NCBI GenBank assembly: GCA_049641805.1
Contig: JBARNX010000033.1
Location: 1 to 55,413, forward strand
DNA: 55,413 nt
From: Minisyncoccales bacterium
GTDB taxonomy: Bacteria > Patescibacteriota > Minisyncoccia > Minisyncoccales > UBA5738
Direction of reading: 5' to 3'
This document shows, piece by piece, positions 7,159 to 53,588 of this stretch. The notes under the pieces are model-generated. The model made no database searches and had not been told where the DNA came from. It was given only the letters and a program-made list of their open reading frames with translations. How positions within the stretch are numbered: the stretch's first letter is position 1; each line of letters starts with the position of its first letter. The translations under genes were made by a program, and so were the position numbers.

Positions 7159-7160
7159 AT

Positions 7161-7570: not shown

Positions 7571-7592
7571 ATATATTCCATTTGGAATATAT
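7571..7592. promoter_or_regulatory. 22-bp palindromic operator candidate, copy 1
   Basis: atatattcca-tt-tggaatatat, with perfect 10-bp arms. Confidence 0.5.
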
Positions 7593-7634
7593 TTTGTTAA
7601 AATAAAATTGCAGATTTTTTTATTAATCAAGAAT

Positions 7635-7853: not shown

Positions 7854-7872
7854 ATTTTTTCGGATTCACGCG

Positions 7873-7894
7873 ATATATTCCAAATGGAATATAT
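7873..7894. promoter_or_regulatory. 22-bp palindromic operator candidate, copy 2
   Basis: atatattcca-aa-tggaatatat. The arms are identical to 7571-7592. It lies 47 nt upstream of the Nudix gene. Confidence 0.5.
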
Positions 7895-7940
7895 GGTATT
7901 GGGTAATTCAATTTTTATTTATTCGTAAATTCGAAGAATC

Positions 7941-8357: not shown

Positions 8358-8450
8358 ATACCTGACATTAAATCAAAAATAATCGCGGATATCGAAAACT
8401 CCAAGGACGAGCAAATTGAGTTTTTAAAAAAACTCGTTCAAACAAATTCG

Positions 8451-9572
8451 GTGAATCCAAATATGGATAATCCGATGAAGTCGAGCCCTTATGATCCGAT
8501 TGAGCTGGGGTTGGCCAAAATTATTTATGGCAAACTCAAAGAAATCGGATTGAATCCGAAGTTTGAAGGCATTTCGGAATCGAGGCCGAATGTTGTTTGC
8601 GAATTCGGGAAAGGGTCCAAAACGCTTATTTTCAATGGCCATATGGACACGGTGCCTGCATCAAATGGTTACACGTATCCGCCGTTTTCCGGTGATTGCC
8701 GCGAAGGCCGGCTGTATGGGGTTGGGGTTCTTGATATGAAATCATCGCTTTGCAGTTTCATATATATGGCGAAAGCGCTCTTGAAACATGAAAAAGAATT
8801 TAATGGCAAAATATGCTTGCAGTTCGTTATCGACGAAGAGCCGATGGCCGCGTCGCATTTCGGTACCAGATATTTGCTCGATCGGGGATACACTGGCAAT
8901 GCGGCAATTGTCGGCGAACCCGGTTCTAAAAAAATAACAATAGGCAATCGAGGGGGATATCGTTTTAAAATAGAAGTTACCGGGGATGCCATACATACCG
9001 GTTCGCGCGAGTGGGAGAAAAAAGCCGCAGGCAGGAATGCGATTTTGGATATGGCGAAAGCGATTGAGGCGCTTCAAGAAATCAGATTCCCTGATTCGGA
9101 CCATCAAATATTCCCTGGAAGAAAAACTGTTTTTACATTCCCAACAATCATTAATGGCGGCAAGTCGATAAATATCGTGCCGGACTCTTGCGTTGCCTTC
9201 GGAGATGTTAGAATTATGCCGGGAGTTTCCCAAGAATATATCGAAAAAGAAATAAACAATAAATTAAATGATCTCGGTATTTCTTATATACTAACGCCTG
9301 TAATATATGTGCCTTCGACATTTATTGATCCTCGGGAAAAAATTGTTGAAATAATCCAAAAGAATACTCGGGAAGTAATGGGTTTTGAGCCTATCGCGGA
9401 AGGCTCAGGTCCGTGGAGCGATATGTGGATGTTTGTTGATAAAGGAATCCCTGCGGTAAATTTCGGTCCCGATGGAGGCGGAGTGTATGATAAGAATGAA
9501 TATGTTGAAATTGAAAGCGTGATTAATACCACAAAAATATACGCTCTTACCGCTCTTGATTTTCTTAGTTAA
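8451..9572 (+). CDS. M20 family metallopeptidase (ArgE/DapE-like)
   Basis: FNGHMDTV, DMKSS, IDEEP and GSREWEK segments. The conserved N-terminal helix continues upstream (8358-8450) without a canonical start. Confidence 0.75.
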   Translation: MNPNMDNPMKSSPYDPIELGLAKIIYGKLKEIGLNPKFEGISESRPNVVCEFGKGSKTLIFNGHMDTVPASNGYTYPPFSGDCREGRLYGVGVLDMKSSLCSFIYMAKALLKHEKEFNGKICLQFVIDEEPMAASHFGTRYLLDRGYTGNAAIVGEPGSKKITIGNRGGYRFKIEVTGDAIHTGSREWEKKAAGRNAILDMAKAIEALQEIRFPDSDHQIFPGRKTVFTFPTIINGGKSINIVPDSCVAFGDVRIMPGVSQEYIEKEINNKLNDLGISYILTPVIYVPSTFIDPREKIVEIIQKNTREVMGFEPIAEGSGPWSDMWMFVDKGIPAVNFGPDGGGVYDKNEYVEIESVINTTKIYALTALDFLS

Positions 9573-9578
9573 AATTTT

Positions 9579-10091
9579 ATGAAGCTGGTTAAGCCGACAA
9601 AGAAATATGGGGCGGGATGGAAGAGGGCGGTAGAGGAATTAAAAAATGATTCTGAGAGCATAAAGCTTTGGGAGGTTTTGGGCGATCCGGATGATTTGGA
9701 TTTGATCATTAAAACCGCGCGGTTGCATTCGCAAGGCAAAAATTTACCGTCTGGCTGGATGCCTTATGATATTTATTGGCTGGTTGAAGGGGAGGAGGTG
9801 ATCGGTATTGTCAGCATCCGCCACAAGCTGAATGCCGATCTTGAATTGCGCGGCGGCCATATCGGCGCCGAGATTGTGCCTTCGGAAAGAGGGAAAGGAT
9901 ATGGTAGCAAAATGCGTGAATTGGTTTTGCCAAAATTGAAAAAATTGGGAATCAAGAAAGTTTTAATGACGAGTTTTGACGATAACATCGCTTCTTATAG
10001 GATAATTGAAAAACACGGTGGCAAATTGGAAAATAAAATTAAAGCGGAAGGCGAGAATGATGTTACCCGGAGATATTGGATTGATTTGTAA
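9579..10091 (+). CDS. GNAT family acetyltransferase
   Basis: RGKGYGSKMRELVL...IIEKHGGKLE. Confidence 0.65.
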   Translation: MKLVKPTKKYGAGWKRAVEELKNDSESIKLWEVLGDPDDLDLIIKTARLHSQGKNLPSGWMPYDIYWLVEGEEVIGIVSIRHKLNADLELRGGHIGAEIVPSERGKGYGSKMRELVLPKLKKLGIKKVLMTSFDDNIASYRIIEKHGGKLENKIKAEGENDVTRRYWIDL

Positions 10092-10189
10092 CCTTGGGCG
10101 ATTGCGATTATCTGTATTGCGAATATAGATATTTTTAAATTATTTATATTGCCGATTTAGGTTTTATATGTACGCGAAATTGTTGTTTT

Positions 10190-11059
10190 TTGAATTATAT
10201 GAATTATATGAGAGATATTATTATCCAAAATCAGGAAAAATTTGATGTAAAATTGCAGGCGATTCTTATCGGCGGGATTGATAAATTTCATGTTAGGATG
10301 GATTTTGACGGGACGGTGACCAAGGCGGTCGTTGATGGCAAGGTTGTGCCGTCGCTGATTTCGGTTTTGCGCGACGAGGATTTCTTGGGCGCGGATTATT
10401 CGCAAAAAGCGCACGCGCTTTATGATAAATACCGGCCGATCGAGATTGATCCGAATATTTCCAATGAAGACAAAAAGATGGCGATGCGCGAATGGTGGAA
10501 GGCGCATTTTGATTTGCTCATAGAAAAAGGATTTTCAAAGCGCCATATCGAGAGGGCGCTGGGGAGTGCGCGCATACAGTTGCGCGGCGGTTTCAAGGAG
10601 TTTGCGGCAATGCTGGCGAAAAATAATGTCCCGCTGGTGGTAATGTCGTGCAGTGGCATGGGGGCTGATATGATAAAAATGGTTCTGGATAAAAATGATA
10701 TATTGTTCGATAACATCCATATTGTTACCAATCAATACGAATGGAATGATCAAGGCTTGGCGGTTGTGGTAAAAGAGCCAATTATTCACGTGCTCAATAA
10801 AGACGAGGAATCCATTAAGCGTATACCTCATGTTTATGAAGCAATAAAAAACCGGCCTAACGCTTTACTTTTAACGGATTCGGTTGCCGATATCACAATG
10901 GCGAGCGGCGCGAAAATTGATAGCTTGCTGTCGTTTGGTTTTTTAAACATCGATATCGATAAACAAATTGAGTTTTTCAAAAAAACTTTTGACGCGGTTT
11001 TGTTGAACGACGCGCCAATGGATTTTCCTAATGGAATATTAAGATTAATTTGCAAATAA
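10190..11059 (+). CDS. Pyrimidine 5'-nucleotidase, cN-III/UMPH-1-like (HAD)
   Basis: MDFDGTVTK, MSCSGMGADMI, IIHVLNKDE and LLLTDSVADITMASG mirror the UMPH-1 motifs. Confidence 0.6.
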   Translation: MNYMNYMRDIIIQNQEKFDVKLQAILIGGIDKFHVRMDFDGTVTKAVVDGKVVPSLISVLRDEDFLGADYSQKAHALYDKYRPIEIDPNISNEDKKMAMREWWKAHFDLLIEKGFSKRHIERALGSARIQLRGGFKEFAAMLAKNNVPLVVMSCSGMGADMIKMVLDKNDILFDNIHIVTNQYEWNDQGLAVVVKEPIIHVLNKDEESIKRIPHVYEAIKNRPNALLLTDSVADITMASGAKIDSLLSFGFLNIDIDKQIEFFKKTFDAVLLNDAPMDFPNGILRLICK

Positions 11060-11065
11060 TGTCTT

Positions 11066-11614
11066 ATGACCGAGCTGATCGATATTTGCGATGAGAATAA
11101 TAATATCATTGGCCAGGCGATGAAGAGCGAGGCGCTGGCCAGGGGGTTGTGGCACCGGGTGGCGCGGGTTTTAATTTATGACCGGAAGGGCAGGATATTT
11201 TTGCAATTGAGGTCAATGGCCAAGGAATTGCATCCCGGTTGCTGGGATGTTGGCGTGGCCGGCCACATTGGCGCAGGCGAGGATTATGTTGATGCCGCGA
11301 TCAGGGAAGCGCAAGAAGAGCTGGGTTTGCGGATTTCAAAAGAGATGCTTAATTTGCTGATGATTGAAAAGTTTGAGCAAACGTGGGACGATTTGAACGA
11401 AAAAGTTTTCGCTGGTACTTATTTAGCGAAATTTGATGGCAATATTTGCGATTTAAAAATCCAAGCCAAAGAAGTTCAGGAGTTGAAATTTGTTTTTGTC
11501 GATGATTTGGAAAGGGATGTGAAATCGAATCCGAAAAAATATTCGCCACATCCGGAACCATATTGGCTAACTTTGATAAATGGAGTTAGAAATAGATTTG
11601 GAATTGGTTCGTAA
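11066..11614 (+). CDS. NUDIX hydrolase (IDI-like subgroup)
   Basis: GHIGAGEDYVDAAIREAQEELGL. Confidence 0.75.
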   Translation: MTELIDICDENNNIIGQAMKSEALARGLWHRVARVLIYDRKGRIFLQLRSMAKELHPGCWDVGVAGHIGAGEDYVDAAIREAQEELGLRISKEMLNLLMIEKFEQTWDDLNEKVFAGTYLAKFDGNICDLKIQAKEVQELKFVFVDDLERDVKSNPKKYSPHPEPYWLTLINGVRNRFGIGS

Positions 11615-11628
11615 TAAAAAAGAACTGG

Positions 11629-11796
11629 CTATTTTTTTGATTTTTTGCCAGATTCCTTGCTTGGAGAATACCAGGTAGCGATAGTCTCTCTCCTTTTGCC
11701 TGGTAATTCTATGAATTGTTCAGCAGCTTTTTGGGGCTCTTCGGCATGAACCTTTTTAGGGTTATCTAAAGTGTCTTTCTTGACCGATAATTTCAT
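11629..11796 (-). CDS. Unlisted small ORF (55 aa), hypothetical
   Basis: MKLSVKKDTLDNPKKVHAEEPQKAAEQFIELPGKRRETIATWYSPSKESGKKSKK. A gaggt sits 7 nt upstream of the ATG. It occupies an otherwise empty 273-nt gap. Confidence 0.3.
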   Translation of the reverse strand: MKLSVKKDTLDNPKKVHAEEPQKAAEQFIELPGKRRETIATWYSPSKESGKKSKK

Positions 11797-11887
11797 TTGA
11801 CAACCTCACTATTTTAATAAAACAATTTAAATAATTTGTCAAATTTTTTGGTTATCGCGAAACTAAAGTTTTACGAAGTAAAAAATT

Positions 11888-12373
11888 ATGAAAATATTAA
11901 TCGCATTTTATTCGCTGACTGGGAATACTAAAAAGATCGCGCGAGCGGTGACGGGCGCGGCGGGAGGGGAGGTGATGGAGATAAAAATCAAGAGGGAGAT
12001 TCCGGAGAAGGGGTTTTGGAGATACTTTTGGATCGGGATGCAAGCGATAATGAGATCGGGATTGCGGCCGCTGGAGAAAAATCCCAATGATTATGATTTG
12101 ATATTTTTGGGCGGCCCGGTGTGGGCGGGAAATTTCGCGCCGGCAATCCGGTCATTTTTGGAAAAAACCAAACTCAAAAACAAAAAAATCGCGCTGTTCT
12201 GCATCCACGGCGGCGACGACCCGGGCCAAGCAATTGTCAATTTGGAAAAAGAATTGTCGGGCAATGAAATTGTCGGGAAGATTGATTTTCAAATGGATGG
12301 GATAGCCGATGCGCAACTGGCGGAAAATTTGCGAAAAGCAGGGGAATGGGCAAGGGGGATTGCGGGTAAATAA
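11888..12373 (+). CDS. Flavodoxin-family protein
   Basis: MKILIAFYSLTGNTKKIA N-terminus. Confidence 0.7.
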   Translation: MKILIAFYSLTGNTKKIARAVTGAAGGEVMEIKIKREIPEKGFWRYFWIGMQAIMRSGLRPLEKNPNDYDLIFLGGPVWAGNFAPAIRSFLEKTKLKNKKIALFCIHGGDDPGQAIVNLEKELSGNEIVGKIDFQMDGIADAQLAENLRKAGEWARGIAGK

Positions 12374-12404
12374 AAGTGTCCAGACATCGGACATCTGGAC
12401 ACTT
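12374..12404. terminator. 11-bp hairpin aagtgtccaga/tctggacactt (shared motif, no U-tract)
   Basis: Directly follows the stop codon. The same core recurs at 29442-29480. Confidence 0.4.
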
Positions 12405-12619
12405 AAAGCGAGAAGTAATAAAGCGGGCGAGCAGGAATTATTTGATTTGAATGGAATTTTTGCTAATGTGGAGAGTGGATAAAATACGAGTGTTTGATGA
12501 GGACTAACCTCTGCGAGTATGCCGAGGATAGACCTCCTCAAACCAAAACGCTGATTTTTTTGTTTGGAAATTATAAAATTGAAAATTTATTGGAAATTGG
12601 TAATTGGAAATTGAAAATT

Positions 12620-14461
12620 ATGACAACAAAAGAAATAAGAGAAAAATACTTAAAATATTTTAACCAAAAAGGACACGCAATCATACCATCCTGTTCTCTG
12701 GTTCCGGATAATGATCCGACGACTTTGTTCACTTCGGCCGGGATGCAGCAGATGATACCGTATCTTTTGGGGCAGACGCATCCGCTGGGCACGCGCATTG
12801 CCAACGCGCAAAAATGTTTGCGCACGCAGGATATCGAGGAGGTGGGGGACAATCGGCATATGACTTTTTTTGAAATGCTGGGAAATTGGTCGCTGAATGA
12901 TTATTTCAAAAAAGAACAGCTTTCGTGGATGTTTGAATTTTTGACTAAAGAGGTTGGTTTGGAGCCCAAAAACATTTATGTTACCGCTTTCCGCGGTTTG
13001 GCCGAAGCCGGGATTCCCCGGGACGAAGAAACCGCCAATGTATGGAAAGAATTGTTTAAGAGCGCGGGAATTGATGCCAAGGATGTCGCGGGCGGAGAGC
13101 ATGAAATCAGGGAAGGCGAGAAAATTTTTTATTATGACGAAAAGAAAAATTGGTGGTCGCGGTCCGGGGTGCCGCAAGCTATGCCCGAAGGCGAATTGGG
13201 CGGGCCGGACTCGGAAATGTTCTGGGATTTTGGTGCAGACTTAAAATTGCACGAAAACTCGCCATGGAGAGATTTGCCATGCCATCCCAATTGCGATTGC
13301 GGCCGGTTTTTGGAGATCGGCAACAATGTGTTCATGGAATATGTGAAACGCGCCGGCGCCGTGGTGAAAATGGAAAACCATAATGTTGATTTTGGCGGCG
13401 GCTTGGAGCGCATCGCCGCGGCGGCAAACAGTGACCCGGATGTTTTTAACATTGGTTTATTCAAACCGGTGATTGAAAAACTGGAATTATTGTCAGGCAA
13501 AAAATACAAAGACGGCGCAAAAACAACCGCGGCGATGCGCGTGATCGCCGATCATATCCGCGGCGCGGTGTTTTTGATCGCCGACGGGGTGTTGCCGTCC
13601 AATAAGGCGCAAGGTTATTTTGCGCGCCGTTTGGTACGCCGCGCAATCGTCAAAGGCCATGAATTGGGAATTGAAAATAATTTTTTGAATGAGATTGCAA
13701 GTATATATTTAAATATATACCAGCTGGCGGCAGAACAAATTAGAAATGAATTGGAAAAAGAAGAAACTAAATTCAGAAAAACGCTAAAACAAGGGTTAAA
13801 AGAAATGGAAAGGCGGATTGCAGAAAATACATTAGATGGAAAGCAATTATTTGATTTATACCAAAGTTATGGATTCCCGCTGGAATTAAGCTTGGAGATT
13901 GCCAAAGAAAAGAATGTATCAATTGCCAAAAGTTCAATAAATAATTTCAACGCGGAATTTAAAAAACATCAGGAACTTTCGCGCACGGCCGGCGCCGGGA
14001 TGTTCAAGGGGGGGTTGGCCGATGCGGGAGAGCAAACGACCAAATTGCACACGGCGGCGCATTTGCTTCTGGCGGCGTTGCGGCAAGTTTTGGGCGGTCA
14101 TGTGGTTCAGCGCGGTTCCAATATTACCGCCGAGCGGTTGCGGTTTGATTTTTCCCATCCGGAAAAAATAACGCCCGAAGAAATTCGGCAAGTTGAATAT
14201 TTGGTCAACGAACAGATTAAAAAGAATATTCCCGTTGATAGGAAAGAGATGGCTTTGGAAGACGCGCGGGCGAGCGGCGCAATGGGCGTGTTCGGATCAA
14301 AATACGGGGAGAAAGTGGCGGTTTACGCTATCGGCGGATTTTCCAAGGAAATATGCGGCGGGCCGCACGCGGAAAATACCGGTGAGCTTGGCCGGTTCAA
14401 AATCGTCAAAGAAGAATCATCGTCATCGGGGGTGCGGCGCATTAAAGCTATCTTGGAATGA
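12620..14461 (+). CDS. alaS: Alanine--tRNA ligase, short form without the C-Ala domain
   Basis: MTTKEIREKYLKYFNQKGH..., FTSAGMQQ, an editing domain with HTAAHLL, and a ...GGPHAENTGELG...VRRIKA end. 613 aa. Confidence 0.85.
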   Translation: MTTKEIREKYLKYFNQKGHAIIPSCSLVPDNDPTTLFTSAGMQQMIPYLLGQTHPLGTRIANAQKCLRTQDIEEVGDNRHMTFFEMLGNWSLNDYFKKEQLSWMFEFLTKEVGLEPKNIYVTAFRGLAEAGIPRDEETANVWKELFKSAGIDAKDVAGGEHEIREGEKIFYYDEKKNWWSRSGVPQAMPEGELGGPDSEMFWDFGADLKLHENSPWRDLPCHPNCDCGRFLEIGNNVFMEYVKRAGAVVKMENHNVDFGGGLERIAAAANSDPDVFNIGLFKPVIEKLELLSGKKYKDGAKTTAAMRVIADHIRGAVFLIADGVLPSNKAQGYFARRLVRRAIVKGHELGIENNFLNEIASIYLNIYQLAAEQIRNELEKEETKFRKTLKQGLKEMERRIAENTLDGKQLFDLYQSYGFPLELSLEIAKEKNVSIAKSSINNFNAEFKKHQELSRTAGAGMFKGGLADAGEQTTKLHTAAHLLLAALRQVLGGHVVQRGSNITAERLRFDFSHPEKITPEEIRQVEYLVNEQIKKNIPVDRKEMALEDARASGAMGVFGSKYGEKVAVYAIGGFSKEICGGPHAENTGELGRFKIVKEESSSSGVRRIKAILE

Positions 14462-14552
14462 CGCGGCCGCGGCTTGCGCGGTTTTTAAATATTGTTAAAA
14501 TAAAAGTATAAATAATCAAATCCCGTGATCGGGAGGAAATAACCAATAATCT

Positions 14553-15071
14553 ATGGATAAAAAAATTGCGTATTATGTCGCCGCGGGAGTGATTCTTATT
14601 GCGGTTGTCGGTATTGTTATAATAATGCAGAATTCTGGAAAACCGGTCGTGACTCCGCCAGCTGGAGATGAAACCGCGAACCAGCCGGTTAAATCCGAAA
14701 CCAAGCTTGCCAATGAAGATGTTGCCAAGCAATTGAATCTGAAAGACGGCGAATTGCCTTTGCGCGTCACTTTGGACGATAACGGCCAGACATATTCCGC
14801 CACTCCCGGGAAAAATCTTGTTTTAATGTTGGGAACGGATTATAATTGGGATATTGTTTCCAGCGATAGCAATGTTTTATCGCGAAGAGATGTTAAAGTT
14901 GGCGATGCCCGAGTGCAGGCGGTGTATCAAGTGGTTGCCGAGGGCAAGGCGGTGTTGAAAGCGACTGGAACTTGCAAGAATAAAACCGGATGCACGGCAC
15001 CGGCACCGTTTAACTTCAGCGTTGAAGGCGTGATAAGTGAAAATGAGACGCCGGAAGACTTGGTAAAATAA
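14553..15071 (+). CDS. Membrane-anchored/secreted hypothetical protein
   Basis: N-terminal TM (YYVAAGVILIAVVGIVII), then a beta-rich domain. Confidence 0.4.
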   Translation: MDKKIAYYVAAGVILIAVVGIVIIMQNSGKPVVTPPAGDETANQPVKSETKLANEDVAKQLNLKDGELPLRVTLDDNGQTYSATPGKNLVLMLGTDYNWDIVSSDSNVLSRRDVKVGDARVQAVYQVVAEGKAVLKATGTCKNKTGCTAPAPFNFSVEGVISENETPEDLVK

Positions 15072-15137
15072 TTTAGACATACCGAGATTAAGATCAGAAC
15101 GGCTTTCACAAGGCCGTTTTTGGTAGCAAACGAAAAA

Positions 15138-15671
15138 ATGAAAATAAATATCGGCACCAAAAATAAAATCAAGGCCGATGCTCTGCGAGAAATAATTGTT
15201 GGATATGATTTTTTGAACAGGGCCCGGATCAAGACGATTGAAACGGAGTCCGGCGTGGCCGATCAGCCCAAAAGTTTGGAAGAAACCGTTCGCGGCGCCA
15301 AAAATCGGGCTAAAACCGCGTTTAGCGATTGTGATTTTTCGGTGGGCGTGGAAGACGGGTTGATGTCGGTTGGGCAGGCCGCCACCGGATTTATGAATTT
15401 GTGCGTTTGCGCGTTTTATGACGGACAAAGATATTATCTGGGGACATCGGCAGCGTTTGAATATCCGCCCAAAGCGATTGAATTGGTGGGCAAGGGCAGA
15501 GATATCAACCAGGCGTTTTATGAACTGGGTCTGACCGGCGACCCCAAAATCGGTTTGTCGCTTGGCGCGATCGGGATACTGACCAAAAACCGGTGGTGCC
15601 GCAAGGATACCGTGAAACAATCGATTATTGCCGCGCTGATCCAACTTGATAACAAAAGTTTATATGAATAA
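15138..15671 (+). CDS. Non-canonical purine NTP phosphatase (YjjX/DUF84-like)
   Basis: MKINIGTKNKIK, SGVADQP and GVEDGL motifs. Confidence 0.65.
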   Translation: MKINIGTKNKIKADALREIIVGYDFLNRARIKTIETESGVADQPKSLEETVRGAKNRAKTAFSDCDFSVGVEDGLMSVGQAATGFMNLCVCAFYDGQRYYLGTSAAFEYPPKAIELVGKGRDINQAFYELGLTGDPKIGLSLGAIGILTKNRWCRKDTVKQSIIAALIQLDNKSLYE

Positions 15672-29526: not shown

Positions 29527-30066
29527 CTAACCCCTGCTCCGCCCGCTGGCTTCGCAGGGGTTAGTCCCTTGTCTGGATGTAGTGATAAAATATTTTTTCA
29601 GGGCTAATCTGAAGATGGTTTTGTTTTTTAGGTTGGCTTCGATGAGGCAGATGCCTTTGTTGGGGAAGCCGTAGACGATTAGGGTTTTGGGTTTTGATTC
29701 CAGAACCGCGGGGATGACCAAAAGGTCTTCTTCGCCTTCGACGCAGACATTGATTTTTTCTTTAATCGCGTTTTTGACCGCGAGCCAGGCATTTTTTTGA
29801 ATGGTGCCGGCGGGATTATCAACTATTGTGGCGCACTCATGTTTTTGGGCGAAAACTTTTCGCTGGACTTTTTTGTCGAAAATTTTAATATCGGATTGCA
29901 AATGGTGCGAGCAATAATCGCCCACGGTGATTACGGTCTTGTAATTATTTTTATCCAATATCCTTTGATAGCGGGCTTTGGTTTTTTCTTCGGTTCCGAA
30001 TATCGGTTTGCCCCAGATTTTTTGCATTTTTGCGCGCGATTTTTCCGGTAAAAAATAAGTTCTCAT
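29527..30066 (-). CDS. DUF359/UPF0218, archaeal-type GTP-dependent dephospho-CoA kinase family
   Basis: VGDYC..., IFDKKVQRK, VDNPAGTIQ, VEGEEDLLVIPAVL and VYGFPNKGI match family hallmarks. The last 13 codons run through GC hairpin 29527-29564. Confidence 0.7.
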   Translation of the reverse strand: MRTYFLPEKSRAKMQKIWGKPIFGTEEKTKARYQRILDKNNYKTVITVGDYCSHHLQSDIKIFDKKVQRKVFAQKHECATIVDNPAGTIQKNAWLAVKNAIKEKINVCVEGEEDLLVIPAVLESKPKTLIVYGFPNKGICLIEANLKNKTIFRLALKKYFITTSRQGTNPCEASGRSRG

Positions 30067-30084
30067 TTGCAAAAATTTAAAGTT

Positions 30085-32229: not shown

Positions 32230-33444
32230 ATGGATAATATTTTAGACGATATTCTTAAAAACATCAGCGAACGGGCGCCGCATACGCCATTCTCGGTCGA
32301 GTTTTGGGATGAAACAAAGAAACAATATGGGCGGGGGACGGAAAAATTCAAGATTATCTTTCGTTGCGAAAGTGCGTTAAAGAAGTTTTTGTCGGCCGGT
32401 ACATTGGGTTTCGGCGAGGAATATATGGCCGGCAATATCGAGGTTGCCGGAGATATGCAAGCGATGCTGGGGCTGTACGATCATTGGCGTGATCTTAACC
32501 GGAATATCTCGCCGGGGGTAAAGTTCCGGGTGCTGGCAAACGCGATTTTGACGCGCGCGACAGTCCGCAATTCAAAAAAGAATATCAGGCATCATTACGA
32601 TATCGGCAATGATTTTTATTCTTTATGGCTTGATTCGGCGATGGCTTACTCCTGTGCGTATTTTAAAAACGGTTCCGACAGCTTGGAAATTGCGCAAGCG
32701 AACAAATATGACCATATCTGCAAGAAACTTCGCTTGCGAGCTGGAGAGAAACTGCTGGATATCGGTTGCGGTTGGGGAGGGATGATGTTTCACGCCGCAA
32801 AAAATTATGGCGCCGATTGTACCGGCTGTACACTGTCGGAAACTCAATATCGATATGTTAACGAAAAAATCGAAAAAGAAGGTTTGGGCGGCAAGATTAA
32901 AATTTTTTTAAAAGACTATCGCCGGGTGGAGGGGGTTTTCGATAAATCGGTTTCCGTCGGAATGTTCGAGCATGTGGGGAAAAATTATTATTCGGAATTT
33001 TTTTCAATGGTTAAAAGAACGCTTAAACCTTCGGGTATCGGCGTTTTGCACACCATCGGTTCCCGATCCGGGGGAGCGACAGATCCATTTATCGCCAAAT
33101 ACATTTTTCCGGGCGGGTTTGTTCCGACGCTGGCAATGGTCGCCGACGCGATGAATAAAGCCGAGTTGGTTTTTTATGATGTCGAAGACTTGCGGATGCA
33201 TTATGCCAAAACGCTTGATCTTTGGATCGCTAATTTTGAAGCGGCCGGCGCCGAGGTGAAGAATGTTTTGGCCCGAGAAATAAAAGATCGGACTCGGGCC
33301 GAGGAATTCATCCGGATGTGGCGGCTTTATTTGAATGGCAGCGCGGTTGCGTTCAAAAATGCCGGCAATCGATTGTATCAGATAACTTTTACCAATGGAG
33401 TCAACAATAATTTGCCGCTGACTCGGGATTATCTGTATTCATAA
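32230..33444 (+). CDS. Cyclopropane-fatty-acyl-phospholipid synthase family methyltransferase
   Basis: HYDIGNDFY and LLDIGCGWGGM SAM motif. Length is as expected for the CMAS family. Confidence 0.8.
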   Translation: MDNILDDILKNISERAPHTPFSVEFWDETKKQYGRGTEKFKIIFRCESALKKFLSAGTLGFGEEYMAGNIEVAGDMQAMLGLYDHWRDLNRNISPGVKFRVLANAILTRATVRNSKKNIRHHYDIGNDFYSLWLDSAMAYSCAYFKNGSDSLEIAQANKYDHICKKLRLRAGEKLLDIGCGWGGMMFHAAKNYGADCTGCTLSETQYRYVNEKIEKEGLGGKIKIFLKDYRRVEGVFDKSVSVGMFEHVGKNYYSEFFSMVKRTLKPSGIGVLHTIGSRSGGATDPFIAKYIFPGGFVPTLAMVADAMNKAELVFYDVEDLRMHYAKTLDLWIANFEAAGAEVKNVLAREIKDRTRAEEFIRMWRLYLNGSAVAFKNAGNRLYQITFTNGVNNNLPLTRDYLYS

Positions 33445-35255: not shown

Positions 35256-36197
35256 ATGTTTGAAAATAATAAACTTGCAAAACTTTTGAATATCAAGTAT
35301 CCGATCATCCAAGGCGGCATGGCGGGCGTTTCGGAATCGGTTCTGGCTTCCGCGGTTTCCAATGCCGGGGGATTGGGCGTGATCGGATCGGGATTTGCGT
35401 CGGCCGCTTGGCTGGATGAAGAAATTAAAAAAACCAAGCTGTTGACCGGCAAGCCGTTTGGAGTGAACCTTTTGTTGCAAAACCCGAATGTTTCCGAACT
35501 GGTCAAGGCGGTTATTGCCAATAAAGTTCCGGTGGTGTTTACCGGCGGCGGCAACCCGGTGCCGTTGATGCCGTTTTTGAAACAGGCGGATGTTAAAATT
35601 ATCCCCGTGGTGCCTTACGCGCGTTTGGCGGTGAAAATGGAGCAGGCGGGCGCAGACGCGGTAGTGGTGGAGGGGCTTGAATCCGGCGGACATATCGGAG
35701 AAAGCACGACAATGTGCTTGGTGCCGCAGGCTGTCGGAATGGTTAAAAATATTCCGGTGATCGCTGCCGGCGGAATTTGCGACGGACGGACAATGGCCGC
35801 GGCAATGGTTTTGGGCGCCGATGGCGTACAGATTGGTACCCGATTCCTGGCGGCCGTTGAATGCCAGGTGAGCGAAAGCTACAAGAAGGCGGTGATTAAT
35901 GCCGCCGATGAGAATATTGTGGTGGTGGCGCGTTTTACCGGCCATCCGGTGCGGATGATCAATAACAAATTCGTTGAATCGGTGCGCAAGATCGAGGAAA
36001 AAAATCCGTTTCCCGAAGAAATAAAATCCGAACGGTTTGCCGGCAACAAAGGCGGCGCGAACGCCGATTTGTCGCCGCTATTGTGCGGCACTTGCGCGGG
36101 AGGGATCAAAGAAATTAGAACTTGCCGGGAGATTATCGACGAAATTATTGCCGATGCCCTGAAAATCCTTTCGTCGGCTCCGGGTATGGCAAAATAG
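35256..36197 (+). CDS. NMO/FabK-type enoyl reductase (stand-alone paralog)
   Basis: KYPIIQGGMAGVS, VVVEGLESGGHIGE. Confidence 0.75.
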   Translation: MFENNKLAKLLNIKYPIIQGGMAGVSESVLASAVSNAGGLGVIGSGFASAAWLDEEIKKTKLLTGKPFGVNLLLQNPNVSELVKAVIANKVPVVFTGGGNPVPLMPFLKQADVKIIPVVPYARLAVKMEQAGADAVVVEGLESGGHIGESTTMCLVPQAVGMVKNIPVIAAGGICDGRTMAAAMVLGADGVQIGTRFLAAVECQVSESYKKAVINAADENIVVVARFTGHPVRMINNKFVESVRKIEEKNPFPEEIKSERFAGNKGGANADLSPLLCGTCAGGIKEIRTCREIIDEIIADALKILSSAPGMAK

Positions 36198-36205
36198 AAT
36201 TAAAA

Positions 36206-36874
36206 ATGAAAAAAATTGTTTCAATGGCCGCGTGGCTTTTCCCCGGGCAATGCATCAAAAGGATGTTTGTCAAAGAAGTGGAGGGGAGGAGCAATTTTCC
36301 TAAAGGGAATTTTATCTACGCGGCCAATCATTTGAGCCATATTGATTGGCTGATTGACGGCGCGATCTTGACGCCGCGGCGATTCACTTTCATCGGCCAG
36401 ACGGATAAAATGATTGGGATCAAAGGATTTTTGCGAGACTTGATTTATTGGTGGGCCCAGGTGATTCCGGTTAACCGCAATGATCACGAATCAAAAAAGA
36501 GAGCCGCGATGGCCGCGCAAACAATGCTTAGAAGAGGTTATTGTCTGATAATTTATCCGGAAGGCGCGCGGTCGCGTGACGGCAAATTGCATGAATTCAA
36601 GCCGGGCGTGGGCCGGTTTCATCTGGAAAGCGGTGTTCCTGTTTTGCCGGTGGCGCATTTTGGCACTTATAAGTTAATGCCGCCGGGGGAGAAATTCAGG
36701 GCAAAAAAAATCGTAAAAATAAAAATCGGCAAACCTCTCAATTTTACCGAAGAAAGGAAGGCGGCAGAATTGCTGGACAAGAAATCGCAAGCCTATTACA
36801 GGCTTTGCGCTGATGTCGCTAAAAATGTTGAAGAAGCGGTGAGAGGGCTGTTGGAAGATCAAATTAATTTTTAA
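36206..36874 (+). CDS. PlsC-family lysophospholipid/glycerol-phosphate acyltransferase
   Basis: NHLSHIDW (HX4D) and IYPEGARSRDG. Confidence 0.75.
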   Translation: MKKIVSMAAWLFPGQCIKRMFVKEVEGRSNFPKGNFIYAANHLSHIDWLIDGAILTPRRFTFIGQTDKMIGIKGFLRDLIYWWAQVIPVNRNDHESKKRAAMAAQTMLRRGYCLIIYPEGARSRDGKLHEFKPGVGRFHLESGVPVLPVAHFGTYKLMPPGEKFRAKKIVKIKIGKPLNFTEERKAAELLDKKSQAYYRLCADVAKNVEEAVRGLLEDQINF

Positions 36875-36883
36875 ATTTTTCCG

Positions 36884-37549
36884 ATGAATACTTTCGTTTC
36901 AACTTTATCGCGAATGGTTTTGGGCGGCGCGGTTAGAAATTTGCTGATCAAAAATATCAAGGGCTGGGATAATATTCCCAAGGGAAATTTCATTCTAGCT
37001 TCCAATCATTTGAGCCATATGGACTGGTTTATGAGCGGTTATATTACTACGCCGCGCAGATTCACTTTCATCGCCCAAGTCGACCAGTACGCGGGTTTTA
37101 AAAAATTGTGGCGCAACATTATTTATTTTTACGGCGGGATAATTCCGATCGACCGCAAAAGCGATCAATCAAAAAAAGATGCGGTCGCGGCGGCGATAAA
37201 AATGCTTGGCCATGGATATTGCGTGGTGATCTATCCGGAAGGCGGAAGGGCGTATGACGGAGTAATGCGCAATTTCAAATCAGGCGTAGGTAAATTGCAT
37301 TTGGACAGCGGCGTACCGGTGTTGCCGGTTGCCATTAAGGGAACCCAAGAATTGATGCCGCCCCATGGCCGGTTGAAATTCAAAAAAGCGGCGCAAATAA
37401 ATATCGGCAAACCGCTGTCGTTCGGTCCAGAAATCGCGGCCGCGGGAAAAATGGACAAGGAGTCGTTTGAATACCGCAAACTTTGCGCCGGTGTTTCTAA
37501 ACGGATTGAAGATGAGGTGCGGAAATTGTTAAAAGAAAATGGAAATTAA
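36884..37549 (+). CDS. PlsC-family acyltransferase (tandem paralog)
   Basis: NHLSHMDW and IYPEGGRAYDG. Collinear with the preceding gene. Confidence 0.75.
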   Translation: MNTFVSTLSRMVLGGAVRNLLIKNIKGWDNIPKGNFILASNHLSHMDWFMSGYITTPRRFTFIAQVDQYAGFKKLWRNIIYFYGGIIPIDRKSDQSKKDAVAAAIKMLGHGYCVVIYPEGGRAYDGVMRNFKSGVGKLHLDSGVPVLPVAIKGTQELMPPHGRLKFKKAAQINIGKPLSFGPEIAAAGKMDKESFEYRKLCAGVSKRIEDEVRKLLKENGN

Positions 37550-44053: not shown

Positions 44054-44075
44054 GCTTCGCTATTTTTTGGAAAAA

Positions 44076-45179
44076 ATGAAGAAGATTTTGATAATTTCAA
44101 TGAAGACCGGGTGGGGGCACATCAAGGCCGCGCAGGCGCTGGAGGAATACGCTAAAAACAATCTGCCGGATTTCAAAATCAGCCATGTCGATCTCTGCGA
44201 GATCGAGCCCGGGCTCGGAAAATTTTTCGAGATTTTTTACGATATTACCAACGACCGTTTGCCCACGGTCTGGGGCGCGGTTTACGAAACTTTCGACAAG
44301 GAAATGGTTTCTTTGGCGTTCCGCAAGGCCAACGGATTTCAGAGATTGTTCCGGCGGCGCATTGGCCGCTATTTAAGAAGGCAAGCTGTGGACGGAGTTA
44401 TTTTCACCAATGTTATTCCCGCGCCCATGGTGGCGCCGGTGTGCCGCGAAATTTATCCTCAAATACCGCTGGCGGTTGTGGTAACCGATTACCACGGCCA
44501 CTCTTATTATAATGTGCCGCTGATTGACCGGTATTTCGTGGCGATTCCCGAAGTTAAGAACGATTTGATCCGGGTGGGCGTGGACGAACAGAAGATTGCC
44601 GTTACCGGCATACCCGTCGGCCAAAAATTTTACGGTCGTTACGATCAAAACGGTTTGGAACGCAAGCTTGGGTTTGGCAATGGTTTTAAAACGGTAACAT
44701 TCATCAGCCGCTTGTCAAAGGATTTCGTGCTTCCGGTTATCAAAAGACTGCTGGAACGCGAAGAAAAAATAAATTTGATAATGGTTTGCGGCGGCAATAA
44801 TGATCTTTATAAAAAAATCAAAAATGAGGTCCCGCCGCGAAAAAATTTTAAACTGGTTAATTGGACCAACCGCATCGATGAATATATGAAGATTTCCGAC
44901 GCGGTGATCAGCAAGCCCGGGGGATTGGTGATTTCGGAGTGTTTGGCGCTTGGCAGGAAGATAATTATGACCGATCCGATTCCGGGTCAGGAAGAACGCA
45001 ACGCGGAGTTTATTGCCAAATACGGCTATGGCGCGTTGGCGCTTACGCCGGATGAAATTGTTGCGGCGGTTGAAAAAATATTGATTATGCCGCGCGCCGG
45101 ACAGGGAGCGGCGCGGTCCGATTCCTGTGCGGAAATTTTAAAATACTTCTTGAATAATCCGGGAGCGGCTTCCAAATAA
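44076..45179 (+). CDS. GT28 diacylglycerol glycosyltransferase (MGDG synthase/UgtP-like)
   Basis: KKILIISMKTGWGHIKAAQAL N-terminus and a GT28 C-terminal domain. Confidence 0.7.
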   Translation: MKKILIISMKTGWGHIKAAQALEEYAKNNLPDFKISHVDLCEIEPGLGKFFEIFYDITNDRLPTVWGAVYETFDKEMVSLAFRKANGFQRLFRRRIGRYLRRQAVDGVIFTNVIPAPMVAPVCREIYPQIPLAVVVTDYHGHSYYNVPLIDRYFVAIPEVKNDLIRVGVDEQKIAVTGIPVGQKFYGRYDQNGLERKLGFGNGFKTVTFISRLSKDFVLPVIKRLLEREEKINLIMVCGGNNDLYKKIKNEVPPRKNFKLVNWTNRIDEYMKISDAVISKPGGLVISECLALGRKIIMTDPIPGQEERNAEFIAKYGYGALALTPDEIVAAVEKILIMPRAGQGAARSDSCAEILKYFLNNPGAASK

Positions 45180-51471: not shown

Positions 51472-52152
51472 TTATTTGGCCAAGGCTTTTAGTTTTGCCA
51501 TGGTACGGAAGGGATGGTCGAGGGCTTTTTCTATGAACGGAGCCATTTTGCCGCCAACACCGCCCTTTTTTTGTTTAATCGCGGCAATGATTTGCGCGGC
51601 GGTGATGGCGGGGGAATAATCAAGCGGAAGTTCCAGCCATGCCTTGCCGATGAAACGGTTGGCAAAATGCGCGTCGGAGCCGGCGGTGAAGGCCAGGTCG
51701 TGTTTTTTGGCGAATGCGGCCGCGGCGTCGTTGCCTTTAAAGACCGAGGCGTTGAGGATTTCAATGCCGTCGATTTGGCCAAGATAATTTTCCAAATTAT
51801 TCTTAAAGCCGCACCACAATCCGAAAGGGTGGGCGACAATGGCCAGGCCGCCTTGGCCGTGGATGCGCGCGATTGATTCTTCGGCCGATAAATGGTCGGG
51901 GATTGATTCTTTGATATTAAGCCCGAGGATGTCGCCGGATTTGGATTTAACCTCTTCAGAGATTATAATAAGAATGGGCAGATTATTTTTTTGGGCGTAT
52001 TCGGCGGCTTTCAACGAACCGTTGATGTTGCCGTGGTCGGCGATGGCAATGCATTGAATCCCGCGCTTAACGGCCAGATCGGCGATCTTCTTGGGATCAG
52101 CCATACTGTCAAACGAATATTTGCTGTGGATATGCAGGTCGCACTTGATCAT
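51472..52152 (-). CDS. PHP-domain phosphoesterase
   Basis: MIKCDLHIHSKYSFDS...IADHGN. ATG at 52152 is preferred over the long track ORF. Confidence 0.7.
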   Translation of the reverse strand: MIKCDLHIHSKYSFDSMADPKKIADLAVKRGIQCIAIADHGNINGSLKAAEYAQKNNLPILIIISEEVKSKSGDILGLNIKESIPDHLSAEESIARIHGQGGLAIVAHPFGLWCGFKNNLENYLGQIDGIEILNASVFKGNDAAAAFAKKHDLAFTAGSDAHFANRFIGKAWLELPLDYSPAITAAQIIAAIKQKKGGVGGKMAPFIEKALDHPFRTMAKLKALAK

Positions 52153-52203
52153 ATTTGAAATTTTAGCATATAGTTGTATTGTATCAATAAGCAGCGCCCG
52201 GAT

Positions 52204-52776
52204 ATGGAATTCGACTTGATTTTCTTTATTTCCTGTTTGTATTTCTTTTTGCCGGCATATTTTGCCAATATGACGCCGCCTTTGCTTAGGAACGCGAAGG
52301 CATTTGATTTTTTTGCCAAGCCGGTTGATTCCGGCAAGAGCTGGCGGGGGAAAAGGATATTCGGGGATCATAAAACCTGGCGCGGTTTGATCGGAGCCAT
52401 GGCGGTGGGCGCGGGCGTAGCGCTGTTGCAATGGTGGCTGTATAAATTTTCCTGGGCCATAGAGCTTTCAATTCTTGACTATAAATCGGTAAATCTCTGG
52501 GCGTTTGCTTTCTTGATTTCCGGCGGAGCGGTGGCCGGGGATCTGGCCGCGGCGTTTATCAAGCGGCGGCTGGATTTGGCGCCGGGCGCGTCGTTTATTC
52601 CCTGGGACCAGACTAATTATGTGATCGGCAGTTTTATTTTTCTGGAGCCCTATATCGGCCGTTATTTGTCCGGTGATTTGATTGTGTGGCTGGCGGTTTT
52701 CATAATGACATTCTTTTTACATCTGTTGTTCAATCGATTCGGGTATGATCTGGGATTGCATAAAGCAAAATGGTGA
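52204..52776 (+). CDS. CarS/DUF46 family (CDP-archaeol synthase-like cytidylyltransferase)
   Basis: LPAYFANMTPPLL, PVDSGKSWRGKRIFGDHKTWRGLIG, GDLAAAFIKRRL. Confidence 0.7.
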   Translation: MEFDLIFFISCLYFFLPAYFANMTPPLLRNAKAFDFFAKPVDSGKSWRGKRIFGDHKTWRGLIGAMAVGAGVALLQWWLYKFSWAIELSILDYKSVNLWAFAFLISGGAVAGDLAAAFIKRRLDLAPGASFIPWDQTNYVIGSFIFLEPYIGRYLSGDLIVWLAVFIMTFFLHLLFNRFGYDLGLHKAKW

Positions 52777-52925: not shown

Positions 52926-52931
52926 TTGACT

Positions 52932-53588
52932 ATGATGTTCGAAGATATATTAAATTACATTGCCGGAAGATTTTCCGATTCAATGTTCGATCTGGCGTCG
53001 GCCGCGGCGATTGGATTGTTCGGATGGTATTTTGCCTACGAGATCGGCAACAAAGCGGCGCAGGTTTTCGGCGATACCAAGTTAAATCAAACTATCAAGC
53101 GGCTGGGCTGGGATGAACCGATCGGCCGGATTTGGCGCGATTTGACCATCGCGAAATTGTTTGGCAAGGCGGTCGAGGTTTGGGTGCTGCTGTTTTTTCT
53201 GATGGTGAGCGCCGGTATTTTGCAACTGGCGCAGTTGAGCCAGCTTTTGAGCGCGGCCGTGGTTTATTTTTTCAATATTTTCATTGCGTTCATTATCTTC
53301 GCGGTGGCGGTGTTTTTTGCGGATTTTTCCCAAAGAACTCTGGCGGCCAACCTGGAAAAGGATAAATTCGTTTATTCCCGTTTTTTGTCCAAATGCGTGT
53401 CGGGCACGATTTGGACTCTGGCGGTTTTGGCGATATTGTACCAATTAAAAATTATTGCGCCGCTGGTATTGGCGATATTCGTGGGTATTGTGGTGACGAT
53501 TTCCCTGGCAGTGGGTTTGGCGCTCGGTCTGGGCGGCAAAGATTTGGCGGCAAAAATTTTAAAGGAGATTGAGGAAAGACTAAAATAA
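52932..53588 (+). CDS. Multi-pass membrane protein
   Basis: About 5 TM helices. ATG at 52932. Confidence 0.4.
   Translation: MMFEDILNYIAGRFSDSMFDLASAAAIGLFGWYFAYEIGNKAAQVFGDTKLNQTIKRLGWDEPIGRIWRDLTIAKLFGKAVEVWVLLFFLMVSAGILQLAQLSQLLSAAVVYFFNIFIAFIIFAVAVFFADFSQRTLAANLEKDKFVYSRFLSKCVSGTIWTLAVLAILYQLKIIAPLVLAIFVGIVVTISLAVGLALGLGGKDLAAKILKEIEERLK

What the first reader, a model, noticed from the sequence alone, without database searches (positions are those of the whole stretch)
52204..52776. CDP-archaeol synthase (CarS/DUF46) homolog in a bacterial context
The motifs LPAYFANMTPPLL, PVDSGKSWRGKRIFGDHKTWRGL and GDLAAAFIKRRL match the CarS family. CarS activates archaeal ether-lipid precursors with CTP. 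No CdsA is visible in the window. Alongside bacterial-type PlsC and GT28 genes, this enzyme may replace CdsA to make CDP-diacylglycerol. Alternatively, it may point to mixed archaeal and bacterial lipid chemistry.
Basis: partly seen in the sequence, partly recalled or inferred. Interest (0 to 1): 0.6.

Follow-up and report, generated by a model that had tools for sequence, protein, structure and literature searches.

The report
CarS-type lipid activator replacing bacterial CdsA
A tiny-genome (CPR/Paceibacteria) bacterium has no normal bacterial CdsA and instead carries an intact archaeal-family CarS enzyme, which most likely activates ordinary fatty-acid phosphatidic acid with CTP so that an inositol head group can be added; this gives a natural test case for what keeps bacterial and archaeal lipid enzymes apart.

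Summary
The gene at 52204-52776 (+) encodes a 190-aa, full-length CarS-family protein, shown by Pfam PF01864, the PDB structure 5GUF and a predicted fold.

The host is a ~1 Mb Paceibacteria (CPR) genome scored 100% complete. It has no CdsA, GGGPS, UbiA/DGGGPS, GGPP synthase, geranylgeranyl reductase or G1P dehydrogenase. It does have:
- fatty-acid genes, two tandem PlsC acyltransferases, a cyclopropane-fatty-acid synthase and a glycolipid synthase, all in this window;
- one CDP-alcohol transferase of the archaetidylinositol/phosphatidylinositol-phosphate synthase type, next to a myo-inositol-phosphate synthase on another contig.

Best reading (about 0.6): the enzyme is the cell's only CDP-lipid synthase. 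It makes CDP-diacylglycerol for phosphatidylinositol synthesis. The divergently transcribed PHP phosphoesterase is the candidate last-step phosphatase.

Across Patescibacteria, CarS-like genes are several times commoner than CdsA, and the two were never found together. About 10% of CarS-bearing relatives, but not this genome, place the orthologue inside a full archaeal-type ether-lipid cluster.

No paper describing this was found. This scan has noted the same CPR module at least 16 times on other genomes. All function is inferred from sequence.

The parts
52204..52776 (+). CarS-family CTP:lipid-phosphate cytidylyltransferase (190 aa, 5 predicted TM helices), the only member of the CTP_transf_1 superfamily in the genome
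   Evidence: PF01864 106.8 bits, full length. 5GUF matches by sequence and by fold, with TM 0.76 on the target and model pLDDT 90.7. It is the only hit in the genome. D42, K57, G61, D113, K120, R121, D135 and Q136 are invariant in 67 homologues.
51472..52152 (-). PHP-domain phosphoesterase, transcribed divergently from CarS. Candidate phosphatase for the lipid-inositol-phosphate intermediate (inferred).
   Evidence: PF02811 and PF13263. The same divergent pairing occurs in 46 of 80 related loci. An orthologue is present in 25 of 25 CarS+ genomes and 7 of 36 CarS- genomes of the order, always beside CarS or beside the CDP-alcohol transferase/MIPS.
52153..52203 (.). 51-bp divergent intergenic region with overlapping promoter-like hexamers for both genes
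   Evidence: Sequence and consensus scan. Consensus matches only, not shown to be functional.
52926..53588 (+). Conserved 220-aa helical membrane protein directly downstream of CarS. Function unknown.
   Evidence: Present directly downstream of CarS in 55 of 80 loci. Only weak hits to a mechanosensitive-channel TM helix. AF2 model pLDDT 79.6 with no clear PDB match.
36122..37549 (+). Two tandem PlsC-family acyltransferases (36122-36874 and 36884-37549), the presumed makers of phosphatidic acid, the proposed substrate
   Evidence: PF01553 88.7 and 87.2 bits. These are the only two in the genome.
32230..33444 (+). Cyclopropane-fatty-acyl-phospholipid synthase, an indicator of acyl-chain phospholipids
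   Evidence: PF02353 CMAS 299.3 bits.
44067..45179 (+). MGDG-synthase/GT28-type diacylglycerol glycosyltransferase, a second consumer of the diacylglycerol backbone
   Evidence: PF06925 and PF04101. NCBIfam diglucosyl-DAG synthase 159 bits, below cut-off.

Best explanation
The gene encodes a CarS-fold integral-membrane cytidylyltransferase. It is this bacterium's only CDP-lipid synthase and does the job that CdsA does in other bacteria.

Proposed pathway:
1. Fatty acids made by the window's carrier-protein-poor fatty-acid cluster are esterified to glycerol phosphate by the two tandem PlsC-family acyltransferases, giving phosphatidic acid.
2. The CarS-type enzyme transfers CMP from CTP onto the lipid phosphate. 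The chemistry is Mg2+/K+-dependent and uses the conserved Asp pair D113/D135 and the K57, K120 and R121 loops. The products are CDP-diacylglycerol and pyrophosphate.
3. The genome's single CDP-alcohol transferase is of the archaetidylinositol-/phosphatidylinositol-phosphate synthase type. It lies on contig C48 directly after a myo-inositol-3-phosphate synthase. It adds inositol-1-phosphate.
4. A phosphatase, with the PHP protein divergent from CarS as candidate, yields phosphatidylinositol.

Shown: family, fold, conserved residues, gene content, co-occurrence and synteny. Inferred: the substrate (diacyl rather than isoprenoid ether), the product, and the role of PHP.
For: Family and fold.

No alternative enzyme. 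CdsA was not found in this genome, which scores 100% complete. It was also not found in the single-contig genome G005 of the same genus, nor in 59 of the 60 relatives of the order. In a phylum sample of 150 genomes, true CdsA occurs in 3 and strong CarS-like hits in 19, never together.

No isoprenoid-ether substrate can be made here. GGGPS, UbiA, Fe-ADH_2/G1PDH and polyprenyl synthase were not found. There are no tblastn hits to a relative's GGGPS, GGPPS, UbiA or GGR.

Acyl-lipid context. The window holds two PlsC, a CFA synthase, FabG/FabA/FabK-like genes, acyl-CoA carboxylase and a diacylglycerol glycosyltransferase.

Consumer enzyme. There is one CDP-OH_P_transf with an intact DxxDGxxAR...GxxxDxxxD motif. 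Its best model is AIP synthase at 124 bits, then PIP synthase at 75 bits, with pgsA at only 35 bits. It lies next to MIPS (TIGR03450, 470 bits).

Co-occurrence in 61 genomes of the order, among the 25 that are CarS+: 24 have the transferase, 22 MIPS, 25 the PHP orthologue and 22 a PlsC-family gene.

Synteny in 80 named Paceibacteria loci. PlsY lies directly upstream on the same strand (24 loci, median gap 57 bp). FakA is nearby in 44 loci, DegV/FakB in 36 and the AIPS-like transferase in 30.
Against: Characterised archaeal CarS enzymes prefer DGGGP over phosphatidic acid, and A. fulgidus CarS did not complement an E. coli cdsA mutant (review PMC9385802). Use of an acyl substrate would therefore be a change of specificity that nobody has measured.

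The partner transferase scores best to the archaeal (AIP) model.

About 10% of CarS-bearing relatives have the orthologue in a full ether-lipid cluster, so the family may have started as a true CDP-archaeol synthase.

No source of glycerol phosphate was found in this genome: GpsA, G1PDH-type and glycerol kinase were all not found. The backbone's stereochemistry is therefore open.

The score to the curated CarS equivalog is just below cut-off, and no biochemical or lipidomic data exist.
Confidence: 0.6

Rival explanations
1. It is a genuine CDP-archaeol synthase. It activates isoprenoid ether lipid phosphates (DGGGP or archaetidic acid) that the cell takes from an archaeal host or neighbour. 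The AIPS-like enzyme then makes archaetidylinositol.
For: The protein belongs to the CarS family and has the CarS fold. The partner transferase scores best to the AIP synthase model. The nearest named non-CPR relatives are DPANN archaea: Woesearchaeota at 39% identity, on a contig with an archaeal-flagellin-domain gene, and Nanobdellota. Relatives G035 and loci L084, L088, L089 and L091 carry the orthologue inside a GGPPS-GGGPS-UbiA-GGR cluster. Some Paceibacteria parasitise methanogens (PMC12281837).
Against: This genome lacks every ether-lipid gene searched for. So do 49 of 55 named CarS+ genomes and 24 of 25 CarS+ relatives. The window encodes fatty-acid synthesis, two PlsC and a CFA synthase. 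In relatives the gene follows PlsY within about 57 bp. Uptake of intact archaeal lipid phosphates is unproven.
Confidence: 0.13
2. It acts on another lipid phosphate or performs another reaction of the superfamily. Examples are lyso-phosphatidic acid (giving CDP-monoacylglycerol and lyso-inositol lipids), or CTP-dependent phosphorylation of a polyprenol, as in the dolichol and phytol kinases of the same superfamily.
For: The CTP_transf_1 superfamily includes CTP-dependent polyprenol kinases (own knowledge). An undecaprenyl-diphosphate synthase lies near the gene in 11 of 80 loci. Three CarS+ relatives lack any PlsC-family gene.
Against: The match is full-length to CarS, not to the kinase branch. 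The tight co-occurrence with a CDP-alcohol transferase, which needs a CDP-activated lipid, argues for a CDP-lipid synthase. This genome has two PlsC genes.
Confidence: 0.1
3. It is a decaying relic of an ancient transfer from archaea, with no present function.
For: The archaeal-type pathway partners are missing here.
Against: The frame is intact. Identity within the genus is 74-96% and within the order 46-63%. 31 columns are invariant in 67 sequences, including the predicted catalytic residues. The gene is present in 15 of 15 genomes of the family. Synteny with PHP and the downstream membrane gene is conserved.
Confidence: 0.03

Closest known systems
Archaeal CDP-archaeol synthase CarS (A. pernix ApCarS, PDB 5GUF; A. 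fulgidus AfCarS; Pfam PF01864, NCBIfam NF003114)
   Same: Same family and length class, with a predicted five-helix membrane fold (Foldseek TM 0.76 on the target, 27% identity). The PVD, GDxKTxxG, GDxxxxFxKRR and DQ motifs are shared with ApCarS. Presumably the same CMP-transfer chemistry.
   Different: The host is a bacterium that lacks the GGGPS, DGGGPS, GGPP synthase and G1P dehydrogenase searched for. The gene neighbours and co-occurring genes are acyl-lipid genes. The score is just below the curated equivalog cut-off (133.6 versus 148). There is an extra ~20-residue segment between TM2 and TM3 relative to ApCarS. The likely substrate is diacyl phosphatidic acid, not DGGGP (inferred).
Bacterial CDP-diacylglycerol synthase CdsA (T. 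maritima TmCdsA, PDB 4Q2E/4Q2G; Pfam PF01148)
   Same: Same superfamily and the same proposed physiological role and reaction (PA + CTP -> CDP-DAG + PPi). The catalytic C-terminal segment aligns weakly (24 bits, profile positions 169-229). It is the second-best fold match.
   Different: It has 190 aa and 5 TM helices, against about 260-290 aa and 9 TM. It has no N-terminal or dimerisation domains. It is not a PF01148 member in any useful sense. In Patescibacteria it occurs instead of CdsA, never alongside it.
Inositol phospholipid pathways: archaeal MIPS-CarS-AIP synthase, and actinobacterial Ino1-CdsA-PgsA1 (PIP synthase)
   Same: MIPS, a CDP-lipid synthase, and a CDP-alcohol transferase that uses inositol-1-phosphate. 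A phosphatase step follows.
   Different: The enzymes are archaeal in type, but the lipid core is probably bacterial (acyl). The candidate phosphatase is a PHP-domain protein rather than a known PgpA-type enzyme. In this genome the module is split into two pairs on different contigs.
Archaeal-type ether-lipid genes in bacteria (Ca. Cloacimonetes/FCB group; Villanueva et al. 2020, PMC7852524)
   Same: Archaeal lipid-pathway enzymes are encoded in bacterial genomes. A Parcubacteria genome with GGGPS and DGGGPS is mentioned there.
   Different: Those bacteria lack CarS and are proposed to use CdsA for activation. Here the situation is the reverse: CarS without GGGPS or DGGGPS.

Membership tests
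CarS / CDP-archaeol synthase (PF01864, NF003114) | Full-length match to the Pfam family above its gathering score | tested here: met
   106.8 bits against a cut-off of 22; residues 5-190 cover profile positions 4-175 of 175.
CarS / CDP-archaeol synthase (PF01864, NF003114) | Score at or above the curated NCBIfam equivalog cut-off (same function as archaeal CarS) | tested here: not met
   133.6 bits against a cut-off of 148.
CarS / CDP-archaeol synthase (PF01864, NF003114) | Five-TM fold of ApCarS with cytoplasmic loops forming the CTP cavity | tested here: met
   AF2 model pLDDT 90.7. The best PDB match is 5GUF, E 1.2e-5, TM 0.64 on the query and 0.76 on the target.
CarS / CDP-archaeol synthase (PF01864, NF003114) | Conserved polar motif residues shared with ApCarS (PVD; GDxKTxxG; GDxxxxFxKRR; DQ) | tested here: met
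   All align with the 5GUF sequence. They are invariant or nearly invariant in 67 homologues. Their catalytic roles are inferred by homology with the CdsA Asp-Asp dyad (PMC7018664). The ApCarS structure paper was not available.
CarS / CDP-archaeol synthase (PF01864, NF003114) | Substrate DGGGP, product CDP-archaeol | not testable with these tools
   This needs an enzyme assay.
CarS / CDP-archaeol synthase (PF01864, NF003114) | Sits in an organism that makes the substrate (G1PDH, GGPP synthase, GGGPS, DGGGPS) | tested here: not met
   None was found in a genome scored 100% complete. None of the 14 other genomes of the family has GGGPS.
CdsA / CDP-diacylglycerol synthase (PF01148) | Full-length CTP_transf_1 match with the N-terminal and dimerisation domains (about 9 TM) | tested here: not met
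   Only profile positions 169-229 of 264 are matched, at 24.3 bits. The protein has 190 aa and 5 predicted TM helices.
CdsA / CDP-diacylglycerol synthase (PF01148) | Makes CDP-diacylglycerol from phosphatidic acid | not testable with these tools
   Supported only by context: no other candidate enzyme, PlsC genes present, and a CDP-alcohol transferase present.
Inositol-phospholipid head-group module (MIPS + AIP/PIP synthase + phosphatase) | myo-Inositol-phosphate synthase and an inositol-phosphate-type CDP-alcohol transferase with an intact catalytic motif, co-occurring with the CDP-lipid synthase | tested here: met
   MIPS 470 bits. The transferase scores 124 bits to NF040950, below its 180-bit cut-off, and the motif was read. 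The triad occurs in 22 of 25 CarS+ genomes.
Inositol-phospholipid head-group module (MIPS + AIP/PIP synthase + phosphatase) | Identified lipid-inositol-phosphate phosphatase | tested here: inconclusive
   The PHP phosphoesterase is linked by synteny and by co-occurrence (25 of 25). There is no functional evidence.

The most novel reading that the evidence does not exclude
The Patescibacterial CarS is a naturally promiscuous CDP-lipid synthase that accepts both diacyl phosphatidic acid and isoprenoid ether lipid phosphates. In most lineages, including this one, it serves a fatty-acid pathway that ends in phosphatidylinositol. In the roughly 10% of relatives that carry GGPPS-GGGPS-UbiA-GGR beside PlsY, FakA and CarS, the same single orthologue would activate both lipid types. 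That would be one enzyme working on both sides of the 'lipid divide', acquired together with the AIPS-like transferase from DPANN-like archaea.
Probability: 0.3. Interest if true: 0.8.

Novelty: new variant of a known kind. Interest (0 to 1): 0.6.

Why it matters
CarS and CdsA are regarded as gatekeepers that keep archaeal and bacterial phospholipid synthesis apart. Archaeal CarS rejects phosphatidic acid and cannot replace CdsA in E. coli.

Here a whole bacterial radiation appears to use the archaeal-family enzyme, and usually not CdsA, in what looks like an ordinary fatty-acid lipid pathway. If that is confirmed:
- It gives a natural set of CarS variants for finding out what sets chain and backbone specificity.
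- It shows that at least some CPR bacteria, often described as unable to make lipids, can finish their own phospholipids.
- It predicts phosphatidylinositol as a main CPR phospholipid.
- It names a candidate (PHP) for a dephosphorylation step in inositol-lipid synthesis.

The key tests are simple: complementation, an in-vitro assay, and lipidomics.

Tried and rejected
I used a metagenome scan instead.
- The ApCarS structure paper (Ren et al. 2017) is not held. Residue roles therefore rest on alignment and on the CdsA literature.
- A phylogeny with classical archaeal CarS (Euryarchaeota, TACK) could not be built. All tools return the nearest relatives, which are CPR, and only 4 of 20 cluster look-ups gave organism names. 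The tree is unrooted and has only two named archaeal sequences.
- My first neighbour clustering merged three families (membrane protein, DegV, FakA) by single linkage, and it put antisense ORFs into the PHP cluster. This was corrected.
- I first used 52131 as the PHP start. The ATG is at 52152.
- A fold search of the conserved downstream membrane protein gave nothing.
- Six literature searches found no paper on CarS in CPR. Absence from this library is not proof.
- Considered and rejected:
  - The TTG at 52174 as the start codon.
  - A di-myo-inositol-phosphate (compatible solute) pathway. The DIPPS model scores 55 bits against 124 for AIPS, and CarS is a lipid enzyme.
  - A pgsA or pssA role for the transferase (35 and 21 bits).

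Full report
**What is there.**
- It matches Pfam PF01864 (CarS-like) end to end: 106.8 bits, profile positions 4-175 of 175.
- It touches the CdsA family PF01148 only over the catalytic segment: 24.3 bits, positions 169-229 of 264.
- The curated archaeal CarS equivalog NF003114 gives 133.6 bits, just under its 148-bit cut-off.
- The only solved relative is A. pernix CarS, 5GUF (E 1.3e-10). The PVD, GDxKTxxG, GDxxxxFxKRR and DQ motifs all align with it.
- An AlphaFold model built on 67 homologues (pLDDT 90.7) has five long helices. Its best PDB match is 5GUF (TM 0.76 on the target, 27% identity), and T. maritima CdsA is a weak second.
- D42, K57, G61, D113, K120, R121, D135 and Q136 are invariant in those 67 sequences. 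By homology with the CdsA Asp-Asp dyad (PMC7018664), D113 and D135 are the likely metal ligands. This is an inference.
- ATG 52204 is the start. Homologues begin there. A 51-bp gap separates it from the divergent PHP gene, whose ATG is at 52152, and the gap holds overlapping promoter-like hexamers.

**The organism.** A tmRNA gene shows the host is a bacterium. The assembly is 0.99 Mb in 74 contigs and scores 100% complete. The closest genome records are Paceibacteria/Parcubacteria of the Patescibacteria, also called CPR. NCBI already labels these proteins 'CDP-archaeol synthase' automatically.

**Gene content of this genome.** The following were not found:
- CdsA: the only PF01148 hit is this ORF;
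- GGGPS/PcrB;
- UbiA-family prenyltransferases;
- G1P-dehydrogenase-type Fe-ADH_2;
- trans-polyprenyl synthases;
- PlsY;
- FakA and DegV;
- any tblastn hit to a relative's GGGPS, GGPPS, UbiA or GG reductase.

The following are present:
- two tandem PlsC-family acyltransferases (36122-37549);
- a thiolase-like gene, FabG-, FabA- and FabK-like genes, and an acyl-CoA carboxylase;
- a cyclopropane-fatty-acyl-phospholipid synthase (32230-33444, 299 bits);
- a diacylglycerol glycosyltransferase.

The genome has a single CDP-alcohol phosphatidyltransferase, on contig C48.
- Its DxxDGxxAR...GxxxDxxxD motif is intact.
- Its best model is archaetidylinositol-phosphate synthase (124 bits), then PIP synthase (75 bits). 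PgsA scores only 35 bits.
- It follows a myo-inositol-3-phosphate synthase directly (470 bits).

The single-contig genome G005 of the same genus shows the same picture. It has CarS beside PHP, MIPS beside the transferase, tandem PlsC genes 17 kb from CarS, and no CdsA.

**Comparative evidence.** The table covers the 61 genomes of the order, of which 25 carry CarS-like, including 15 of 15 in this family.

| Feature | In the 25 CarS+ genomes | In the 36 CarS- genomes |
|---|---|---|
| CDP-alcohol transferase | 24 | 6 |
| MIPS | 22 | 5 |
| PHP orthologue | 25 | 7 |
| PlsC-family gene | 22 | 9 |

A true CdsA (153 bits) occurs in one genome only, and that genome has none of the other four genes.

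In a phylum-wide sample of 150 genomes:
- 19 have a strong CarS-like hit;
- 3 have a true CdsA, and none of these has CarS-like;
- about 125 have neither.

Around the orthologue in 80 named Paceibacteria loci:
- the 220-aa membrane protein lies directly downstream (55 loci);
- the PHP gene is divergent upstream (46);
- FakA is nearby (44), and DegV/FakB (36);
- the AIPS-like transferase lies about 700 bp upstream on the other strand (30);
- PlsY lies immediately upstream on the same strand (24 loci, median gap 57 bp).

In relatives, then, the gene is wired into the bacterial pathway from acyl-phosphate and glycerol 3-phosphate. In this genus it sits beside a de novo, PlsC-based version of that pathway.

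**The other side.** GGGPS is present in 3 of the 61 relatives. In G035 the CarS orthologue lies in one cluster with these genes, in order:
- PlsY, GGGPS, polyprenyl synthase;
- a UbiA prenyltransferase, geranylgeranyl reductase;
- a second PlsY, FakA, the membrane protein, CarS;
- then PHP, the AIPS-like transferase and DegV.

G035 has no PlsC-family gene.

Four named genomes share this architecture (L084, L088, L089, and L091 = Parcubacteria DG_74_3). In the two whose contig coordinates could be compared (L088, L089), GGGPS lies 6-7 kb downstream of CarS. Two more of 50 tested genomes have GGGPS. None of the five tested has a G1P dehydrogenase.

About one CarS-bearing genome in ten could therefore make isoprenoid ether lipids, and the same single orthologue would have to activate them. 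This genome and its genus are not among them.

**Origin.**
- The family has 1,639 clusters at 50% identity with E <= 1e-3.
- Named non-CPR relatives near the top of the list are a Woesearchaeota protein (39% identity), a Nanobdellota protein and one from Thermoanaerobaculia.
- The Woesearchaeota contig has an archaeal-flagellin-domain neighbour.
- In an unrooted quick tree, 27 Paceibacteria sequences form one starred clade apart from the Woesearchaeota-like group.

This fits exchange with DPANN archaea, but the direction was not tested.

**Reading.** The best explanation (0.6) is a CarS-type enzyme doing CdsA's job: phosphatidic acid plus CTP gives CDP-diacylglycerol. That product feeds the inositol-phosphate transferase, and a phosphatase, with PHP as candidate, then gives phosphatidylinositol.

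Points against:
- Characterised archaeal CarS prefers DGGGP, and AfCarS did not complement an E. coli cdsA mutant (PMC9385802).
- The partner transferase is archaeal in type.
- The glycerol-phosphate source is unknown. GpsA, G1PDH-type and glycerol kinase were not found.

Rivals:
- a true CDP-archaeol synthase working on scavenged archaeal lipids (0.13);
- another lipid phosphate, or a kinase-type reaction (0.1);
- a relic (0.03).

**Novelty.** I found no paper describing CarS in CPR. Villanueva et al. mention only GGGPS and DGGGPS in one Parcubacteria genome. This scan's earlier AI notes describe the same CarS/transferase/PHP/MIPS module on at least 16 other genomes, and also the ether-lipid cluster. 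These notes agree with my reading but are not independent evidence.

This instance differs from most of them in two ways. The module is split into two gene pairs, and it is combined with de novo fatty-acid and PlsC genes rather than fatty-acid salvage. That makes the acyl-substrate reading stronger here.

Noticed in passing
window 51472-52152 (-): A PHP-domain phosphoesterase is divergent from CarS. Its orthologue is in 25 of 25 CarS+ genomes of the order, always beside CarS or beside the inositol-type transferase/MIPS. It is a candidate lipid-inositol-phosphate phosphatase.
   Followed up: partly
window 52926-53588 (+): A 220-aa all-helical membrane protein lies directly downstream of CarS in 55 of 80 related loci, and between CarS and FakA in G035. 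It has only weak mechanosensitive-channel TM hits and no fold match. Its function is unexplained.
   Followed up: partly
L117 (G035:C35) 3942-15421; also L084, L088, L089, L091: A relative's CarS sits in one cluster with two PlsY, GGGPS, polyprenyl synthase, a UbiA prenyltransferase, GG reductase, FakA, PHP, the AIPS-like transferase and DegV. Archaeal-type ether-lipid genes and bacterial acyl-lipid genes are interleaved. No PlsC and no G1P dehydrogenase were found in that genome.
   Followed up: partly
whole genome G000: No source of glycerol phosphate was found: no GpsA N-domain, no Fe-ADH_2/G1PDH and no FGGY glycerol kinase. There is only one CDP-alcohol transferase, so no obvious route to PG, PE or cardiolipin.
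   Followed up: partly
window 29527-30072 (-): A DUF359 (PF04019) protein lies at the edge of the lipid cluster. Its homologue recurs near CarS in 12 related loci, where the representative gave only a weak cytidylyltransferase-like hit. From memory, DUF359 is the archaeal GTP-dependent dephospho-CoA kinase family. This was not checked.
   Followed up: no
window 32230-33444 (+): A cyclopropane-fatty-acyl-phospholipid synthase (CMAS, 299 bits) in a ~1 Mb CPR genome.
   Followed up: no
window 52-126 (+): An Rfam group II intron catalytic-domain match (RF00029, 60 bits) lies at the very start of the window, followed by an ORF at 169-1041.
   Followed up: no
relatives G021, G035, G053, G059: These 0.5-Mb genomes each hold three PlsY paralogues, partly in tandem. 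A second acylation by a PlsY paralogue is conceivable where PlsC is missing (G035).
   Followed up: no
L025, L074, L083: Records titled 'Candidatus Pacearchaeota archaeon' encode CarS 46-76% identical to the window's and share its neighbourhood. They are probably mislabelled Paceibacteria.
   Followed up: no
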